Shown piece after piece: positions 37,543 through 46,395 of a stretch of 64,000 nucleotides of DNA. A model generated the notes under the pieces. That model did no database searches and was not told the origin of the DNA. It worked only from the letters and a program-made list of their open reading frames with translations. Every line of letters starts with the position of its first letter. Positions within the stretch are counted from its first letter, which is position 1. The position numbers and the translations under genes were made by a program. The DNA is from Escherichia coli (GTDB lineage Bacteria > Pseudomonadota > Gammaproteobacteria > Enterobacterales > Enterobacteriaceae). Location of the stretch: the NCBI RefSeq assembly GCF_024502345.1, contig NZ_JALDNN010000001.1; one strand, written 5' to 3'.

Positions 37543-37861
37543 ACCACCGTTCGGATGGCATCGTTCTGATGTCGTCCGGCAATTTACTCAGCACTAATGG
37601 TTTTTAACTACCTGTTATATTTTTCACCAATTTATGATGATTTTTCTTCGCTAATCACGAACCCAACGCCGCTGGCTGGCTAATAAACAGACGTTATTTG
37701 ATCACTCTTTTTCGCCGTTATTTATCCCTTTAATTCCCTTTTCTAAAATGCCTGACAGTTCGCAGAATGAGATTTCGATCATGCAGCTAGTGCGATCCTG
37801 AACTAAGGTTTTCTGATACTTGAATACCGTTTTATTCGGTTTCGCCTAAGGAGAATGATTG

Positions 37862-39559
37862 ATGAAATCCCCCGCACCTTCTCGCCCGCAAAAAATGGCG
37901 TTAATTCCAGCCTGCATCTTTTTGTGTTTCGCTGCGCTATCGGTGCAGGCAGAAGAAACACCGGTAACGCCACAGCCGCCTGATATTTTATTAGGGCCGC
38001 TGTTTAATGATGTGCAAAACGCCAAGCTTTTTCCGGACCAAAAAACCTTTGCCGATGCCGTGCCGAACAGCGATCCGCTGATGATCCTTGCTGATTATCG
38101 GATGCAGCAAAACCAGAGCGGATTTGATCTGCGCCATTTCGTTAACGTCAATTTCACCCTGCCGAAAGAGGGCGAGAAATATGTTCCGCCAGAGGGGCAG
38201 TCACTGCGCGAACATATTGACGGACTTTGGCCGGTATTAACGCGTTCTACCGAAAACACCGAAAAATGGGATTCTCTGTTACCGCTGCCGGAACCTTATG
38301 TCGTGCCAGGCGGACGTTTTCGCGAGGTATATTACTGGGACAGTTACTTCACCATGTTAGGACTTGCCGAAAGCGGTCACTGGGATAAAGTCGCGGATAT
38401 GGTGGCCAATTTTGCTCATGAAATAGACACTTACGGTCATATTCCCAACGGCAACCGCAGTTACTATTTAAGCCGCTCGCAACCGCCCTTCTTTGCCCTG
38501 ATGGTAGAGTTACTGGCGCAGCATGAAGGCGATGCCGCGTTGAAGCAATACCTGCCGCAAATGCAAAAAGAATATGCTTACTGGATGGACGGTGTTGAAA
38601 ACCTGCAAGCCGGACAACAGGAAAAACGCGTTGTAAAACTTCAGGATGGTACCCTTCTCAACCGCTACTGGGACGATCGCGATACGCCACGACCAGAGTC
38701 ATGGGTGGAAGATATTGCCACCGCCAAAAGCAATCCGAATCGACCTGCCACTGAAATTTACCGCGACTTGCGCTCTGCCGCTGCGTCTGGCTGGGATTTC
38801 AGCTCGCGCTGGATGGACAACCCGCAGCAGTTAAATACCATACGCACCACCAGCATCGTACCGGTCGATCTGAACAGCCTGATGTTTAAAATGGAAAAAA
38901 TTCTCGCCCGCGCCAGCAAAGTTGCCGGAGATAACGCGATGGCAAACCAGTACGAAACGCTGGCAAATGCCCGTCAAAAAGGGATCGAAAAATACCTGTG
39001 GAACGATCAACAAGGCTGGTATGCCGATTACGACCTGAAAAGTCATAAAGTGCGCAATCAGTTAACCGCTGCCGCCCTGTTCCCGCTGTACGTCAATGCG
39101 GCAGCGAAAGATCGCGCCAGCAAAATGGCGACGGCGACGAAAACACATCTGCTGCAACCCGGCGGCCTGAACACCACGTCGGTGAAAAGTGGGCAACAAT
39201 GGGATGCGCCAAATGGTTGGGCACCGTTGCAGTGGATCGCGACAGAAGGATTACAAAACTACGGGCAAAAAGAGGTGGCGATGGACATTAGCTGGCACTT
39301 CCTGACCAATGTTCAGCACACCTATGACCGCGAGAAAAAGCTGGTGGAAAAGTATGATGTCAGCACCACCGGAACGGGGGGCGGCGGTGGCGAATATCCA
39401 TTACAGGATGGCTTTGGCTGGACCAATGGCGTGACGCTGAAAATGCTGGATTTGATCTGCCCGAAAGAGCAACCGTGTGACAATGTTCCGGCGACGCGTC
39501 CACTCAGTGAATCAACAACACAGCCGGTAAAACAAAAAGAGGCGGAACCTACGCCTTAA
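37862..39559 (+). CDS. treA: Periplasmic trehalase
   Basis: ORF 37859-39559; signal peptide and glycoside hydrolase 37 motifs. Confidence 0.95.
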
Positions 39560-39563
39560 CTTT

Positions 39564-39589
39564 GCTGTATATCGAGGCTGTATATCGAG
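39564..39589. repeat. Perfect tandem duplication of 13-bp unit GCTGTATATCGAG
   Basis: Two adjacent identical 13-mers immediately after the treA stop. Confidence 0.9.
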
Positions 39590-39630
39590 CAATGCCATTA
39601 TGTGCATAAAATTGGCATTGCTCTTTTTTC
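39589..39630 (+). terminator. Rho-independent terminator after treA
   Basis: GCAATGCCA...TGGCATTGC hairpin followed by CTCTTTTTT. Confidence 0.7.
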
Positions 39631-39901
39631 GCCACGAAATGCCCCCCACTCTACGGTCTATGCCTTTATTTTCTTTTATTAGAGAAGATTTTAATTTTAT
39701 TTTATCAATTTGTTAATCATTACACCTCTATTTATATTTTTCGCCACTCCGCCATTCTCCCTGACAATTTTCTTGTGGAACAAAGTGTTATTTAAGCAAC
39801 AAGCAAATCACTCTGTCTCTTTAGACAAATTTTGACATCAAACATGATTTTTTCGATATATATGTAAATATATAGCGGTTTTAATTATCAGGATATAACT
39901 T

Positions 39902-40924
39902 ATGTCACTAACCAGACGGAGGTTTACACAGATTCTTGCGTCGACGTTGTTCCTGCATCATCTGCCTTCTTTTGCACAATCAGTCAAATTCTGGGCCTCA
40001 CTGACGCTTCCCGAAGCCCAAAACATTACACGCATCGTCAGCGCAGGTGCGCCCGCCGATTTGCTATTGCTGGCTGTCGCGCCAGAAAAAATGGTCGGTT
40101 TTTCCTCTTTTGATTTTGCCCGTCAGGCATTAATTCCATTGCCAGAGCACATTCGCCAGTTACCCAGGCTGGGACGACTCGCCGGGCGCGCCAGCACACT
40201 CTCGCTGGAAGGGCTTATGGCGTTACATCCCGATTTGGTCGTTGATTGCGGCAATACGGATGAAACCTGGATCTCCCAGGCACGGCAGGTTAGCGAACAG
40301 ACACAAATACCCTGGTTATTGCTTAACGGGAAACTGGCGCAATCAGCAGAACAGTTAACAACGCTTGGCAAAACGTTAGGCGAAGAGCATCGCGCCGCAG
40401 AACAAGCCAATCTCGCCAGCCGCTTCGTTGGTGAAGCTCAGGCATTCGCCGCCTCACCCGCCGCTAACCTCCGCTTTTATGCTGCGCGCGGTCCTCGAGG
40501 GCTGGAAACGGGCTTAAAGGGTTCGTTGCATACCGAGGCGGCGGAATTATTAGGTTTGCACAACGTCGCGCAAATAGCCGATCGCCACGGCCTGACACAG
40601 GTTTCCATGGAAAATCTCCTGCGCTGGCAGCCGGATATTATTCTGGTTCAGGAGGCCGTTACTGCAGATTTTATTCGTCGTGATCCTCTCTGGCATGGCG
40701 TGAAAGCCGTTGCGGAACAACGCATCTTATTTTTAAGTGGCTTGCCCTTTGGCTGGCTGGATGCCCCACCGGGAATCAACCGTCTTCTGGGATTACGCAG
40801 ACTTCACGCCTGGCTGGATCCCGCCATCAATCGCCAGTTTAAAAGTGACATGCAGCATTACGCCCAACTGTTCTGGCATTGTTCACTCAGTGACGCCGAC
40901 TATCAAAAATTGGTGGCGAGCTAA
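39902..40924 (+). CDS. Periplasmic substrate-binding protein of a siderophore/cobalamin-type ABC importer, with twin-arginine-like signal (LTRRRFTQ)
   Basis: 340-aa ORF; AGGA RBS 8 nt upstream; signal peptide followed by a FecB/FhuD/BtuF-like domain; first gene of a tightly coupled operon. Confidence 0.8.
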   Translation: MSLTRRRFTQILASTLFLHHLPSFAQSVKFWASLTLPEAQNITRIVSAGAPADLLLLAVAPEKMVGFSSFDFARQALIPLPEHIRQLPRLGRLAGRASTLSLEGLMALHPDLVVDCGNTDETWISQARQVSEQTQIPWLLLNGKLAQSAEQLTTLGKTLGEEHRAAEQANLASRFVGEAQAFAASPAANLRFYAARGPRGLETGLKGSLHTEAAELLGLHNVAQIADRHGLTQVSMENLLRWQPDIILVQEAVTADFIRRDPLWHGVKAVAEQRILFLSGLPFGWLDAPPGINRLLGLRRLHAWLDPAINRQFKSDMQHYAQLFWHCSLSDADYQKLVAS

Positions 40925-41922
40925 TGAGAATCGTAAACGGATGTATTTTGCTGCTGGCAGCTATCAGTATCACTTTTGCCGCCGTAAGTGGGGCTTATCA
41001 TCTCGATATGCAGCAACTGCTGGCGCTAATTCTTCGTCAAGAAAATGTTCCTGTGCAGGAACAAATTGTCTTCTGGCAAATCCGCGTGCCGCGTATTCTT
41101 GCTGCGCTGTTACTGGGCGCGGCGCTGTTACTGGGCGCGGCGCTGGCAGGAGCCGGAACCACTTATCAGGGAATGTTGCGTAATCCCTTAGTTTCACCGG
41201 ATATTTTAGGCGTCTCCGCCGGTGCCGGACTTGGTGCCTGCGCGGCAATCCTGTGGGGATTATCCATTGTTTACATCCAGCTGTACGCATTTTGCGGCGG
41301 GCTGATGGTGGTCGCGGGCGTCTGGTTGATTACGCGTCGGGTGACCCGCCACGATCCGATCTTAACCCTGGTGCTGGTAGGCATTGCGTTAGGAACGTTG
41401 TGCGGAGCGGGGATATCGCTAATTAAAACGCTGGCCGATCCTTACACCCAGTTACCGTCAATTACCTTCTGGTTGCTGGGGGGACTGTCCACCGTGACCT
41501 TACGCGATCTCTGCTATGCTGCACCGATCATTCTCATTGGCTCCTTGCCCCTGTTTTTTCTCCGCTGGCGCATGAATTTACTCACGCTTTCCGACGACGA
41601 AGCCCGTTCGCTGGGACTGAACGTGACGCGTCTGCGCTTTGGATTGATTGTCTGCGCCACACTAATCACCGCCAGTACGGTAGCAATAGCGGGCATAATT
41701 GGTTGGGTCGGCCTGGTCGTTCCGCACATTGCCCGCTTGTTGACCGGTCATAACCATCAGCAGCTGTTGCCCATGGCAATGTGTACTGGCGCGATTCTGC
41801 TCCTGCTGACCGATACGCTGGCACGCAGCATTGGAACAACAGAAATCCCACTTGGCATTCTGACCGCTTTTGTTGGCGCACCGTTTTTCCTGCTTTTGTT
41901 GTTACGCGGAGGTCGCCAGTGA
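40924..41922 (+). CDS. FecCD/BtuC-family ABC permease
   Basis: 332-aa polytopic ORF with C-terminal GAPFF signature; start overlaps upstream stop (TAATG). Confidence 0.85.
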   Translation: MRIVNGCILLLAAISITFAAVSGAYHLDMQQLLALILRQENVPVQEQIVFWQIRVPRILAALLLGAALLLGAALAGAGTTYQGMLRNPLVSPDILGVSAGAGLGACAAILWGLSIVYIQLYAFCGGLMVVAGVWLITRRVTRHDPILTLVLVGIALGTLCGAGISLIKTLADPYTQLPSITFWLLGGLSTVTLRDLCYAAPIILIGSLPLFFLRWRMNLLTLSDDEARSLGLNVTRLRFGLIVCATLITASTVAIAGIIGWVGLVVPHIARLLTGHNHQQLLPMAMCTGAILLLLTDTLARSIGTTEIPLGILTAFVGAPFFLLLLLRGGRQ

Positions 41923-42677
41923 CTTTGCTTGCCGTCCGTCATGCGTCTCTGGGTTACTCCCGCCATCCAGTGCTACGCGACGTGTCCTTCACCCTGTCGC
42001 AAGGAACAATTTGTTGTCTGCTTGGCGCGAATGGTTGCGGCAAAACCACACTCATGCGCTCCATTCTTGGCGTTATACCGTTATTAAAAGGCGAGGTCTT
42101 ACTGGATAGCCTCCCTGTGCAGACACTCAGCCATCGCCAGCGCGCGCAGGCTATTGCCTGGGTGCCGCAGGCGCACGACGGTATTTTTGCTTTTAGTGTG
42201 CTGGATATGGTGTTGATGGGCCTGGCCCCCACCATAGGCACTTTTTCCGTTCCCGGTAAGCAAGAACGCCTGAAAGCCACGGAGCAACTGGAAAAGCTGG
42301 GCATTTTGCATCTGGCGGCACGACGCTGGAATACGCTTAGCGGCGGTGAACGTCAGCTGGCTTTAATCGCCCGTGCACTCGTCCAGCAACCGCGCTTGTT
42401 GTTACTGGATGAGCCTGCCTCCAGCCTCGATTTTGGTCATCAGATCCAACTACTGGACACGCTGGCGCAGCTCAAAAATAACGGCATGACAATGTTAATG
42501 TCGACTCATCATCCGCTCCATGCCAACGCCATTGCCGACAGCATTATCCAGGTAGAGCCAGATGGACGAGTAACACAAGGCTTACCGACCGAACAGTTAA
42601 CAACGAACAAACTGGCTGCCCTGTATCGGGTTTCTGCCGACCAGATTCATCATCACCTCTCTGCAATTAGCCACTAA
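41919..42677 (+). CDS. ABC transporter ATP-binding protein (FecE/BtuD-like)
   Basis: GTG start overlapping the permease stop (GTGA); Walker A GANGCGKTT, signature LSGGERQ, Walker B LLLDEP; 252 aa. Confidence 0.85.
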   Translation: MTLLAVRHASLGYSRHPVLRDVSFTLSQGTICCLLGANGCGKTTLMRSILGVIPLLKGEVLLDSLPVQTLSHRQRAQAIAWVPQAHDGIFAFSVLDMVLMGLAPTIGTFSVPGKQERLKATEQLEKLGILHLAARRWNTLSGGERQLALIARALVQQPRLLLLDEPASSLDFGHQIQLLDTLAQLKNNGMTMLMSTHHPLHANAIADSIIQVEPDGRVTQGLPTEQLTTNKLAALYRVSADQIHHHLSAISH

Positions 42678-42686
42678 GGAAAAATC

Positions 42687-43499
42687 ATGCTCATTGATGA
42701 TATTGATTTTGCAGACCTCTACCTGCAGCAACTCAAACTGGCCCACCGCACAGAAAAAACGCCGGATCACTGGGATCAACGGGCGGAAAAAATGGCGGAA
42801 AATTGCGCCTCGCCTACGGACAGCTACCTGCAACAACTGATCGCTAAAATTGACCTACAAGGCGCTCAGACCTTATTCGATATGGGCTGCGGACCGGGTA
42901 CCGTATCGCTGGCGCTGGCTGACAAACTCACGACGATTTATGGCGTTGATTACAGTCAGGGGATGCTGAACGTTGCCGCCCGTCGCGCCGCCTCGCTGAA
43001 GGCAGACAATGTCCACTTGATCCAGCGCGCCTGGGAAGAGGACTGGAGTGACCTGCCACGCTGCGATATTGCCGTGGCTTCCCGCTCCACTCTGGTGGCT
43101 GATATGCGCCAGGCAATGAGCAAACTGAATAATCAGGCACGGCTTCGCGTCTATACGACTCATCTGGTCAGCACCTCGTTCGTCTCTCCAGCCATTCAGC
43201 GGGCGGCTGGTCGGGAAGTGATCGAATTACCCAACTATATCTTTGCGCTCAACGTCCTGTATCAGATGGGAATTTATGCCCACGTTGATTTTATCCGTGG
43301 ACAAAATTGCCAACAGGATAACAGCACCTGGGAACGTTTTGAGCAGAACGTCAGCTGGAGTCTTGGCGCGCTTAACGACGATGAGCGTGAGCGGTTATAT
43401 CACTGGTATCAACAACAAGATGCTCGTGCCCTCGCCCCTGCCAGCCGCGACTGGGCGCTCATCTGGTGGGATAGCGTACCGCAGGAGGCACTGCGATGA
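42687..43499 (+). CDS. Class I SAM-dependent methyltransferase
   Basis: 270-aa ORF with AAGGA RBS and SAM-binding motif I (LFDMGCGPGTVSLALA). Confidence 0.75.
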   Translation: MLIDDIDFADLYLQQLKLAHRTEKTPDHWDQRAEKMAENCASPTDSYLQQLIAKIDLQGAQTLFDMGCGPGTVSLALADKLTTIYGVDYSQGMLNVAARRAASLKADNVHLIQRAWEEDWSDLPRCDIAVASRSTLVADMRQAMSKLNNQARLRVYTTHLVSTSFVSPAIQRAAGREVIELPNYIFALNVLYQMGIYAHVDFIRGQNCQQDNSTWERFEQNVSWSLGALNDDERERLYHWYQQQDARALAPASRDWALIWWDSVPQEALR

Positions 43500-44350
43500 T
43501 TTTCCTTTCTCAGGCACAAATCGATGCGTTACTTCTGGAAGATATCCAGGGCGGTGACCTGACTACGAGAGCATTAAATATTGGACACCAGCATGGCTAT
43601 ATAGAGTTTTTTCTCCGTCAGGGCGGCTGCGTCAGCGGCGTTTCTGTTGCGTGTAAGATGTTAACTACGCTGGGATTAACTATTGATGACGCGGTCAGCG
43701 ACGGTTCACAAGCGAACGCGGGTCAACGGCTAATCCGTGCGCAGGGTAATGCCGCAGCACTTCATCAGGGATGGAAGGCAGTCCAGAATGTGCTGGAGTG
43801 GAGTTGCGGTGTTTCTGATTATCTCGATCAAATGCTGGCGTTACTTCGTGAACGTTATCCTGATGGCAATATCGCCTGCACCCGAAAAGCAATTCCGGGC
43901 ACCCGCTTACTGGCCTCGCAGGCAATTCTGGCTGCCGGAGGACTGATTCATCGTGCCGGATGTGCGGAAACCATATTATTGTTTGCCAACCACCGCCATT
44001 TTCTTCCTGACAATCAGGACTGGTCAGGCGCAATCGATCAGTTACGTCGCCACGCACCCGAGAAGAAAATTGTTGTTGAAGCCGACACGCCGAAAGAGGC
44101 AATCGCCGCGTTACGCGCGCAACCTGACGTACTTCAGCTCGACAAATTTAGTCCGCAACAGGCAACTGAAATTGCGCAAATAGCGCCGTCGCTGGCTCCC
44201 CACTGCACGCTGGCTCTGACCGGCGGAATTAATCTGACGACACTCAAAAATTACCTCGACTGCGGCATTCGCCTTTTTATTACCTCCGCGCCTTATTACG
44301 CGGCACCGGCTGACATTAAAGTCAGTCTGCAACCCGCAGCCTCTATTTAA
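43496..44350 (+). CDS. ModD-like protein (NadC/quinolinate phosphoribosyltransferase fold family)
   Basis: 284-aa ORF; AGGAGG RBS; start overlaps the methyltransferase stop (ATGA). Confidence 0.65.
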   Translation: MIFLSQAQIDALLLEDIQGGDLTTRALNIGHQHGYIEFFLRQGGCVSGVSVACKMLTTLGLTIDDAVSDGSQANAGQRLIRAQGNAAALHQGWKAVQNVLEWSCGVSDYLDQMLALLRERYPDGNIACTRKAIPGTRLLASQAILAAGGLIHRAGCAETILLFANHRHFLPDNQDWSGAIDQLRRHAPEKKIVVEADTPKEAIAALRAQPDVLQLDKFSPQQATEIAQIAPSLAPHCTLALTGGINLTTLKNYLDCGIRLFITSAPYYAAPADIKVSLQPAASI

Positions 44351-44375
44351 TTCTTTGTTAAACGGAATTTATTCT

Positions 44376-46346
44376 ATGAGACTCAAAAAACGTTATCTCT
44401 GCACAGCATTATCACTTGCCTTTACCCAGCAGGCCGTAGCGGCTCAGGAGAGCGACACGCTGACCGTATGGTCCAGTCCGGTATCATCGACGACGACCAC
44501 CGTTCTCGATCAACCCACCATGAAGGCCCTGGATAAACAGAATGTCGCTCAGGCATTAAGTGTCGTCCCCGGCGTGGTGCTGCAAAAGTCAGGCAGCCGC
44601 AACGAAGAACAGGTAAAAGTTCGTGGCTTTGATAGTCGGCAGGTGCCGGTCTATTTCGACGGTGTGCCCATTTATGTTCCCTATGACGGCAACCTCGATC
44701 TGGCGCGGATTCTGACCAACAATCTGGGGGCAGTCGAAGTTTCCAAAGGGTATTCGTCGCTGCTTCAGGGGCCTAATCAGATGGGCGGAGCCATTAATAT
44801 CACCACCCAGAAGCCATCAAAACCTCTGGAAGCAAATCTGGGATATCGCCAGGGATGGAGCCGTAGCCAGGACAATGCCTACGATATGCATGCTTCATTT
44901 GCCGCCAGTAGCGATCTGGGGTATTTGCAAGTCAGCGGTAGCCAGCTAAAGCAGGATTTTCTCGGCCTGCCGCATGGTGTAAATAATGATATTGCAGGCA
45001 AACACGGCAAGATGATTAATTCATCGGCTGATGATAAACGCGGCATTGTGAAGCTCGGATTTACACCACGTGAAAACGATGAATACACACTGACTTACAT
45101 TAAGCAGGATGGTGAAAAAGATAACCCGCCATACAGCGGAAATAGTGGTCAAAAATCACGCTACTGGCAGTGGCCAGAGTATGACAAAGAAAGTTTTTAT
45201 TATCAGGGAACGACCCAACTAAACGATCGTTTTACCCTGAAAAGTCGGCTGTATCGCGACACCTTTGAAAATACGCTGATGATGTACAACTCGCTGGCTG
45301 ATTTGAAAAATAAAAAAGGCAGCTACAGCCATTATTCCGATTACAGCGACGGTGCCGGATTACAACTGGCAGCCGATGTGCGTGAAAACGATCTGCTGTC
45401 GTTTGCCGTTAACTGGAAAGATGACGTACACCGGGAAAAAGGTGCGCCGCACGCCGCTTACGATCGCTATGAAGATCGTACCTGGTCGCTCGCCAGTGAA
45501 TATCAATGGGCTGCTGCCGATAATGTCGATGTCGTGGCTGGAATCAGCTATGACTGGCGCGATAGCGTAGAAGCGAAAAAACACGAGAAAGATGACAGCA
45601 TCACCCATTATGACGACAACAATCAGTCAGCTTTTAACTGGCAAGTGATGGGGAAATACCACTTTGCCAATGAAGACACGCTGGCGCTTTCGTACTATGA
45701 CCGCACACGCTTTCCGACGCTGAAAGAACGCTATACCACATCCAAACCTGCGTATAACCAGATAGCGATTGTTAACCCGCAGCTCAAGCCGGAACGCGCT
45801 CGCGGGGTGGATTTAACCTGGAATGGTGCCTTCACGCGCGACTGGGGATTTGAGGTCAGCGTTTACTATAACCGGGTGAGTGATGCCATCCTCTCGCACA
45901 ATATCGATGCCGATACCATTCAAAATCAGAACAGCGGCACGGTGGATTACAGCGGTCTGGATGCCGGTATTAAGGGGAAAATCAGCAATATACTGGATGT
46001 AGGATTGAGCTACGCCCTGATCCACGCTGACGCCAAACGCAAAGACATCGGCAAGATAACCGATCTGCCAACGCAGACAATGACCGCATGGATGACTCTC
46101 AAACCGTGGGAGCCGTTAAGCGTAACGCTGTCGGAAGAGGCGCGTTCCTCCAGCTACAGCAACAGTGACGGTTCACAAAAAGCCGCCGGTTTTGCGGTGA
46201 CCCACATTCGAGCCGATTACACCTTAGGTCATGGCTTCAGCGTCAATGCGTCGGTCAATAACCTGTTTGATACCCAATATGCCTACAGTGAAGGGTTTAT
46301 TGAAGAAGGCCGCAATTTCTGGGCAGGTGTCGAGTATACGTTCTGA
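44376..46346 (+). CDS. TonB-dependent outer-membrane receptor
   Basis: ORF 44355-46346; likely start at ATG 44376; signal peptide, TonB-box-like DTLTVW, plug domain, C-terminal ...GVEYTF. Confidence 0.85.
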   Translation: MRLKKRYLCTALSLAFTQQAVAAQESDTLTVWSSPVSSTTTTVLDQPTMKALDKQNVAQALSVVPGVVLQKSGSRNEEQVKVRGFDSRQVPVYFDGVPIYVPYDGNLDLARILTNNLGAVEVSKGYSSLLQGPNQMGGAINITTQKPSKPLEANLGYRQGWSRSQDNAYDMHASFAASSDLGYLQVSGSQLKQDFLGLPHGVNNDIAGKHGKMINSSADDKRGIVKLGFTPRENDEYTLTYIKQDGEKDNPPYSGNSGQKSRYWQWPEYDKESFYYQGTTQLNDRFTLKSRLYRDTFENTLMMYNSLADLKNKKGSYSHYSDYSDGAGLQLAADVRENDLLSFAVNWKDDVHREKGAPHAAYDRYEDRTWSLASEYQWAAADNVDVVAGISYDWRDSVEAKKHEKDDSITHYDDNNQSAFNWQVMGKYHFANEDTLALSYYDRTRFPTLKERYTTSKPAYNQIAIVNPQLKPERARGVDLTWNGAFTRDWGFEVSVYYNRVSDAILSHNIDADTIQNQNSGTVDYSGLDAGIKGKISNILDVGLSYALIHADAKRKDIGKITDLPTQTMTAWMTLKPWEPLSVTLSEEARSSSYSNSDGSQKAAGFAVTHIRADYTLGHGFSVNASVNNLFDTQYAYSEGFIEEGRNFWAGVEYTF

Positions 46347-46351
46347 TGTGA

Positions 46352-46384
46352 AAGCGGATAGCGGCATCTGTATCGCTATCCGCC
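46352..46384. terminator. Bidirectional terminator hairpin between the receptor gene and ymgE
   Basis: Inverted repeat GCGGATAGCG-loop-CGCTATCCGC between convergent stops. Confidence 0.55.
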
Positions 46385-46395
46385 TTATGAAAATC

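What the first reader, a model, noticed from the sequence alone, without database searches (positions are those of the whole stretch)
39564..39630. 13-bp perfect tandem repeat fused to the treA terminator at the edge of the accessory cluster
GCTGTATATCGAG is duplicated exactly, directly after the treA stop and abutting the terminator hairpin, at the point where the accessory operon begins. It may be a scar of the event that created the junction or a short-repeat polymorphism.
Basis: seen in the sequence. Interest (0 to 1): 0.3.

Follow-up and report, generated by a model that had tools for sequence, protein, structure and literature searches.

The report
Rare 13-bp duplication after treA
A 13-base stretch just after the E. 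coli trehalase gene is copied twice in this strain and in about 1% of related strains; it is an ordinary small duplication polymorphism that leaves the gene's terminator intact, not a scar of how the neighbouring iron-uptake gene cluster arrived.

Summary
GCTGTATATCGAG occurs twice, perfectly and head to tail, at 39564-39589. It starts 4 nt after the treA stop. Its last 3 nt (GAG) begin the 11-bp stem of a hairpin-plus-T6 terminator (39587-39629).

The "junction scar" reading fails. Of 5,426 complete E. coli genomes, 2,143 carry the same treA-to-cluster junction. Of these, 2,114 have one copy (701 GCTG..., 1,413 ACTG...) and only 29 have two. None has three. The roughly 3,180 genomes with ycgY instead of the cluster lack the 13-mer and the hairpin entirely.

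The break in homology between the two locus types is not at the repeat. It lies inside treA at 39502, 58 nt before the stop, and inside the 3' end of the TonB-receptor gene at 46323. The 13-mer has no other copy in the window, so it is not a flanking target duplication.

The terminator hairpin folds the same with one or two copies. The same spacer carries other small tandem indels in other lineages.

Verdict: a derived, rare, probably neutral tandem-duplication polymorphism in the treA 3' UTR. Whether it arose once or a few times is unresolved. Interest is low.

The parts
39564..39576 (+). Copy 1 of the 13-bp unit GCTGTATATCGAG. This is the extra copy relative to 2,114 single-copy genomes; which of the two copies is 'new' cannot be determined.
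39577..39589 (+). Copy 2 of the 13-bp unit. Its last 3 nt (GAG, 39587-39589) are the first 3 nt of the terminator stem.
39587..39629 (+). treA intrinsic-terminator-like hairpin: 11-bp stem GAGCAATGCCA/TGGCATTGCTC, 15-nt loop, then T6. It is conserved in all cluster-type genomes examined, with a T/C polymorphism in the loop.
   Evidence: -18.4 kcal/mol, z -4.4; same stem predicted with 1 or 2 copies. The simple terminator scan missed it because that scan only allows loops of 3-8 nt.
37859..39559 (+). treA (periplasmic trehalase), stop TAA at 39557-39559. From 39502 to the stop, the sequence is the cluster-type allele of the C-terminal tail ([19 protein letters not shown]).
39502..46322 (+). Variable segment that distinguishes cluster-type from ycgY-type E. 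coli. It comprises the diverged treA tail, the 3' UTR with the 13-mer and terminator, a 313-nt spacer, and six genes: periplasmic binding protein 39902-40924, FecCD permease 40924-41922, ABC ATPase about 41919-42677, SAM methyltransferase 42687-43499, ModD 43496-44350, TonB-dependent receptor 44355-46346.

Best explanation
A 13-bp segment of the treA 3' untranslated region was duplicated in tandem in one sublineage, or a few, of E. coli that carry the treA/iron-transport-cluster arrangement. The window's strain inherited it. The ancestral and overwhelmingly common state is one copy. The likely mechanism is a replication or repair misalignment next to the terminator hairpin; this is inferred and not shown, and no flanking microhomology is visible. 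The duplication lies upstream of the terminator stem and regenerates the same stem, so it adds 13 nt to the treA 3' UTR without changing termination. It is therefore most likely selectively neutral. It has nothing to do with how the cluster junction was formed.
For: Shown: (1) Exact population counts in 5,426 complete genomes give 29 with two copies, 701 with one GCTG copy and 1,413 with one ACTG copy. These sum to the 2,143 genomes that hold the contiguous junction, so there is no third state. (2) Alignments of seven junctions across identity bands show a clean 13-nt gap in five of them. In an 8.5-kb alignment of 15 strains, the indel separates 9 carriers from 6 close non-carriers. (3) All 29 carriers rank among the 40 closest local haplotypes out of more than 2,100. 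All are of the G-variant type and none of the 1,413 A-variant genomes carries it, so the event is rare. (4) The predicted terminator hairpin is identical with one or two copies. (5) The same spacer holds other small tandem indels in other lineages: AAATACC x2, (ATTTT)2 to 3, and poly-T length. The window has a private 18-bp tandem duplication in the permease gene. Such events are therefore ordinary here. (6) The homology breakpoints with ycgY-type strains are at 39502 and 46323, not at the repeat. Inferred: the slippage or misalignment mechanism, and neutrality.
Against: Carriers are not a clean clade over 8.5 kb. They differ by up to 95 SNPs, which is as much as carrier versus non-carrier. 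SNP-free tracts around the duplication are no longer between carriers (median 364 nt) than between carriers and non-carriers (median 322 nt). A single origin therefore requires several recombination events close to the site; otherwise the event recurred. There is no microhomology at the duplication boundaries (T before and C after, unit G...G), so classical slipped-strand mispairing between short repeats does not explain it. With two copies, the fold gains a weak extra helix between the junction (GAGGCUGUA) and the end of treA (UACGCCUU), about -5.6 kcal/mol. An effect of this helix cannot be excluded.
Confidence: 0.85

Rival explanations
1. Recurrent hotspot: the same 13-bp duplication arose independently two or more times, because the adjacent terminator hairpin stalls replication and favours one specific misalignment. 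This is a variant of the best explanation that differs in the number of events.
For: Carriers fall into at least four local haplotype classes (1, 4, 16 and 8 genomes) and at least three groups over 8.5 kb. Four-gamete incompatibilities occur within about 220 nt on both sides, at sites 39352 and 39811. Carrier-carrier shared tracts are no longer than carrier-non-carrier tracts.
Against: There are no duplications among 1,413 A-variant genomes that have the same hairpin, and no three-copy alleles (sum exactly). E. coli recombination is evident in the same alignment; for example, XJ34 treA matches the O145 haplotype. That recombination can scatter one old allele. The two right-flank SNPs that set window and 873.10 apart (39649, 39680) are private to that pair among the 15 aligned strains. 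In one search the closest right-flank matches after 873.10, carriers and non-carriers alike, are at 99.0% or below, which fits these SNPs being later mutations.
Confidence: 0.15
2. Scar of the event that joined the accessory cluster to treA, for example a target-site duplication or recombination footprint.
For: Only its position, between treA and the first cluster gene.
Against: 2,114 of 2,143 genomes with the identical junction have one copy. The left breakpoint is at 39502 inside treA, 62 nt upstream of the array, and the right breakpoint is at 46323. There is no second copy of the 13-mer, or of its 10-nt cores, anywhere in the 64-kb window, and no flanking direct repeats of the segment. ycgY-type strains retain the last 24 nt of the receptor gene. 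This suggests the cluster was replaced there rather than inserted here.
Confidence: 0.02
3. Footprint of a mobile element: an insertion sequence that makes 11-13-bp target duplications (IS4-family behaviour, recalled from general knowledge) inserted here and was later removed, leaving both target copies.
For: 13 bp is within the recalled range of target duplications of some IS4-family elements. There is no microhomology to explain slippage.
Against: 2,144 genomes hold the cluster-side spacer and 2,143 hold the contiguous junction. At most one genome could therefore have anything inserted at the site, and none was seen. Known precise excision in E. coli removes one target copy. Rejoining that keeps both copies with no remnant would need end-joining, which E. 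coli largely lacks (general knowledge).
Confidence: 0.04
4. Adaptive regulatory change: the extra copy alters treA 3'-end formation or mRNA stability, or read-through into the downstream iron-transport operon.
For: The two-copy RNA is predicted to gain an 8-bp helix that sequesters the treA stop region (-24.2 against -18.6 kcal/mol for the whole segment).
Against: The terminator stem and U-tract are unchanged. No promoter-like site is created in the array. There is no Rfam match above threshold and no convincing Fur box in the spacer. The allele frequency is only 1.4%, with no sign of a sweep.
Confidence: 0.05
5. Sequencing or assembly artefact.
For: None.
Against: The identical 36-nt junction is present in 29 independently sequenced complete genomes from different hosts and countries.
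Confidence: 0.01

Closest known systems
Small tandem-duplication indel polymorphisms in bacterial non-coding DNA (replication or repair misalignment)
   Same: An exact head-to-tail copy of a short unique segment. It is present in a minority of strains and sits in an intergenic or 3' UTR spacer that carries other small tandem indels.
   Different: There is no flanking microhomology, so the textbook slipped-strand model between short direct repeats does not strictly apply. The position at the foot of a hairpin may matter, but this was not tested.
Phase-variable simple-sequence repeats (contingency loci) and VNTRs
   Same: A tandem repeat whose copy number differs between strains.
   Different: Only two states (1 or 2 copies) occur in 2,143 genomes, with no higher copy numbers. 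The repeat is outside the coding sequence and the promoter, and it is rare (1.4%). This is not the behaviour of a hypermutable tract.
Target-site duplications of insertion sequences or genomic-island insertion scars
   Same: A short direct repeat next to a boundary between conserved and variable DNA.
   Different: The copies are adjacent with nothing between them. There is no copy at the far end of the cluster. Most genomes with the same junction have one copy. The real homology breakpoints lie elsewhere.
Rho-independent (intrinsic) terminators
   Same: The adjacent element has a GC-containing 11-bp stem followed by T6, directly after the treA stop, and is conserved across cluster-type genomes.
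   Different: The 15-nt loop is longer than typical, so the simple scanner missed it. Termination activity was not measured.

Membership tests
Tandem-duplication indel polymorphism | Two adjacent identical copies where related genomes have one copy of the same sequence in the same place | tested here: met
Tandem-duplication indel polymorphism | The derived state is restricted to a subset of lineages, and the single copy is the majority and present in all divergent haplotypes | tested here: met
   29 of 2,143 genomes; a single copy in both G- and A-variant lineages. Formal rooting with an outgroup species was not possible (one search found none).
Slipped-strand mispairing between microhomologies | Short direct repeat (1 nt or more) at the boundaries of the duplicated unit in the ancestral sequence | tested here: not met
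   Ancestral sequence is ...CTTT|GCTGTATATCGAG|CAAT... The base before the unit (T) differs from the last base of the unit (G), and the base after (C) differs from the first base (G).
Contingency locus / hypervariable VNTR | Many copy-number alleles across strains | tested here: not met
   Only 1 or 2 copies; the counts sum exactly to the number of junction-bearing genomes.
Contingency locus / hypervariable VNTR | The repeat lies in a coding sequence or promoter so that copy number switches expression | tested here: not met
   It lies between the treA stop and its terminator. No promoter-like site is present in the array.
Target-site duplication flanking an inserted element or island | Direct repeats flank the inserted DNA, one at each end | tested here: not met
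   The 13-mer and its 10-nt cores occur only at 39564 and 39577 in the 64-kb window. No matching repeat lies at the right end, 46300-46400.
Target-site duplication flanking an inserted element or island | The empty site in strains without the insert has one copy of the repeat | tested here: not met
   ycgY-type strains REL606 and 165 have no copy of the 13-mer or the hairpin.
Intrinsic terminator (for the adjacent hairpin) | Stable GC-containing stem-loop immediately followed by a U-tract, downstream of a stop codon on the same strand | tested here: met
   11-bp stem, -18.4 kcal/mol, z -4.4, followed by U6; 28 nt after the treA stop in the two-copy allele and 15 nt in the one-copy allele.
Intrinsic terminator (for the adjacent hairpin) | Transcripts actually end at the U-tract | not testable with these tools
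   Needs 3'-end mapping (Term-seq or 3' RACE).

The most novel reading that the evidence does not exclude
The identical 13-bp duplication arose independently in several E. coli lineages. The foot of the treA terminator hairpin would then be a sequence-specific, microhomology-independent duplication hotspot. The extra copy might also subtly change treA 3'-end processing or read-through into the iron-uptake operon.
Probability: 0.1. Interest if true: 0.3.

Novelty: new member of a known kind. Interest (0 to 1): 0.08.

Why it matters
It matters little. The result mainly removes a false lead: the repeat is not evidence of how the iron-transport cluster came to sit next to treA. Its practical value is as a simple two-state marker for a minority of E. 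coli lineages. It is also a reminder that the boundaries of this variable segment lie inside the flanking genes (the treA tail and the end of the receptor gene). That pattern points to allelic replacement by homologous recombination rather than insertion of a mobile island.

Tried and rejected
- **Outgroup search.** I scanned 100,044 species-representative genomes for the terminator hairpin to root the polymorphism. It returned only an E. coli-like contaminant contig in a Collinsella MAG (L023, truncated inside the 13-mer) and an unrelated Chitinophagaceae hairpin. No outgroup information was obtained.
- **Rfam scan of 39000-40200.** Only a sub-threshold mir-310 match to the hairpin, which I take as chance.
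- **Promoter/terminator scan.** No promoter in the array. The scan's terminator rule (loop of 8 nt or less) missed the real hairpin and instead flagged a weak minus-strand site inside treA.
- **Fur-box scan.** The best match in the spacer is 13/19, which is no better than the window background.
- **LexA half-site.** The A-variant reads TACTGTATAT, a perfect left half of an SOS box as I recall the consensus, but the right half lacks CAG. I rejected this by inspection.
- **Single origin from local haplotypes.** Inconclusive because of recombination.
- **Literature search for ycgY + treA.** Nothing relevant to this junction.

Full report
**What is there.** The window is E. coli chromosome: dhaKLM, treA, a six-gene cluster, then ymgE and ycgR.
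- treA ends with TAA at 39557-39559.
- After four bases (CTTT), the 13-mer GCTGTATATCGAG occurs twice, perfectly and head to tail, at 39564-39576 and 39577-39589. Tandem Repeats Finder reports period 13, 2.0 copies, 100% matches.
- The last three bases of copy 2 (GAG) open an 11-bp stem, GAGCAATGCCA/TGGCATTGCTC, with a 15-nt loop followed by T6 (39587-39629). As RNA it folds at -18.4 kcal/mol, z = -4.4 against shuffles.
- The consensus terminator scan missed this hairpin only because that scan requires loops of 3-8 nt.
- A perfect tandem duplication of period 13 or more is expected about 0.0013 times in 64 kb.

**The surroundings.**
- The downstream ORFs are a periplasmic binding protein, a FecCD permease, an ABC ATPase, a class I SAM methyltransferase, a ModD (QRPTase-like) protein and a TonB-dependent receptor. 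These assignments come from Pfam and RefSeq annotation of the nearest genome.
- The first of these genes starts at 39902, 313 nt after the array.
- There is no Rfam family, no promoter-like site in the array and no convincing Fur box in the spacer.

**Population test.** All counts are from 5,426 complete E. coli genomes.

| State | Genomes |
|---|---|
| Any match to a 601-nt probe across the junction | 5,322 |
| Match to the whole probe (cluster-type junction) | 2,143 |
| Two copies of the 13-mer | 29 |
| One copy, GCTG variant | 701 |
| One copy, ACTG variant | 1,413 |

- The three copy-number probes were 36-mers built so that megablast's 28-nt word can only be satisfied by one allele.
- 29 + 701 + 1,413 = 2,143, so every junction-bearing genome is accounted for. 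No three-copy or other allele exists in the collection.
- The genomes that do not match the whole probe match only its treA part.
- Alignments confirm a clean 13-nt gap in five of seven junctions sampled across identity bands and in six close non-carriers.
- The duplication is thus a derived, rare allele: 1.4% of junction-bearing genomes, 4% of the G-variant lineage.

**Where the junction really is.**
- Strains without the cluster (REL606 and strain 165 were checked) carry ycgY between treA and ymgE.
- Their sequence is 98.9% identical to the window through treA up to 39501. It then drops to 57% identity over the last 58 nt of treA. The length is the same but the tail differs: [19 protein letters not shown] against PTVKSATTQPSTKEAQPTP*.
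- Beyond the stop there is no similarity. These strains have neither the 13-mer nor the hairpin.
- Homology resumes at 46323. The last 24 nt of the TonB-receptor gene (AGVEYTF*) are therefore retained in strains that lack the gene.
- The variable segment is 39502-46322, and both of its ends lie inside genes.
- This looks like allelic replacement by recombination. The receptor remnant suggests the cluster is the older state at this locus; this is inference.
- The 13-mer lies 62 nt inside the segment. It has no second copy anywhere in the window, and the segment has no flanking direct repeats.
- The "scar of the junction event" reading is therefore rejected.

**One origin or several?**
- All 29 carriers fall among the 40 closest matches to the window's 8.5-kb treA-cluster segment, out of more than 2,100. 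All are G-variant.
- They are nonetheless not a clean local clade. Nine carriers differ by up to 95 SNPs over 8.5 kb, as much as carriers differ from non-carriers.
- They form at least three haplotype groups and four classes in a 501-nt probe, of 1, 4, 16 and 8 genomes.
- Four-gamete incompatibilities occur within about 220 nt on each side.
- SNP-free tracts around the site are about as short between carriers (median 364 nt) as between carriers and non-carriers (median 322 nt).
- Recombination is evident in the same alignment; for example, XJ34 carries an O145-like treA block.
- The absence of the duplication from 1,413 A-variant genomes with the same hairpin argues that the event is rare.
- I favour one old event scattered by recombination. 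Two or three independent events cannot be excluded (about 15%).

**Mechanism and consequence.**
- The ancestral sequence ...CTTT|GCTGTATATCGAG|CAAT... offers no microhomology at the unit boundaries, so classical slippage between short repeats is not indicated.
- A misalignment during replication or repair at the foot of the hairpin is the most likely cause. This is inferred.
- An IS footprint was considered. 2,144 genomes hold the cluster-side spacer and 2,143 hold the intact junction, so essentially no genome has anything inserted there.
- The terminator stem and U-tract are predicted identically for one- and two-copy RNAs.
- The only predicted difference is a weak extra helix between the new junction and the end of treA.
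- The simplest reading is a neutral 13-nt lengthening of the treA 3' UTR.

**Context that makes it ordinary.**
- The same spacer shows other small tandem indels in other lineages: AAATACC x2 just 3' of the terminator, (ATTTT)2 to 3 at 39694-39703, and a variable T-run at 39847-39853.
- The window itself carries a private 18-bp in-frame tandem duplication in the permease gene (41104-41139; 0 of 5,426 genomes).
- Strain 873.10 has an 18-bp deletion between 9-bp repeats in modD.

**Verdict.** This is a real, rare, lineage-restricted tandem duplication in the treA 3' UTR. It is an undescribed instance of a very familiar kind of variation. It is unrelated to the origin of the cluster junction and probably has no function. 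Interest is low.

Noticed in passing
window 39502-39559 and 46323-46346: The boundaries of the cluster/ycgY polymorphism lie inside genes. The last 58 nt of treA are only 57% identical between the two locus types, against 98.9% upstream. The last 24 nt of the TonB-receptor gene (AGVEYTF*) survive in strains that lack the gene, which suggests the cluster is ancestral here and ycgY a replacement.
   Followed up: partly
window 41104-41145: A perfect 18-bp in-frame tandem duplication (GCGCTGTTACTGGGCGCG, 2.3 copies, +6 aa) in the FecCD permease gene. It is absent from all 14 related loci aligned and from all 5,426 complete E. coli genomes searched, so it is private to this strain.
   Followed up: yes
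window 44190-44216: An 18-bp segment of modD bounded by a 9-bp direct repeat (CGCTGGCTC). It is deleted in strain 873.10 and looks like a repeat-mediated in-frame deletion.
   Followed up: partly
window 39627-39633, 39694-39703, 39847-39853: Other small tandem indels in the same spacer in other lineages: AAATACC duplicated in RIVM_C019217 and FDAARGOS_536, (ATTTT)2 expanded to 3 in strain 319, and T-run length variation just upstream of the binding-protein gene.
   Followed up: partly
window 40286: Strain 873.10, the closest complete genome (99.4% over 27.7 kb), lacks one C here, and its binding-protein gene is annotated as frameshifted. The window's copy is intact.
   Followed up: no
L023 2330-2481: A 2.5-kb contig in a 'Collinsella sp.' MAG is E. 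coli-like treA-cluster spacer DNA that ends inside the 13-mer. It is probably binning contamination.
   Followed up: partly
window 51664-53100 (repeat 52831-52937): A 478-aa ORF with leucine-rich-repeat Pfam hits and a degenerate 9-bp periodic tract (GACCTGGAG, about 12 copies). The counterpart in strain 873.10 is annotated as an incomplete hypothetical protein next to an IS1.
   Followed up: no
E. coli genome searches: A handful of matches to the treA-cluster junction (3-12 places) lie on records classed as plasmids.
   Followed up: no
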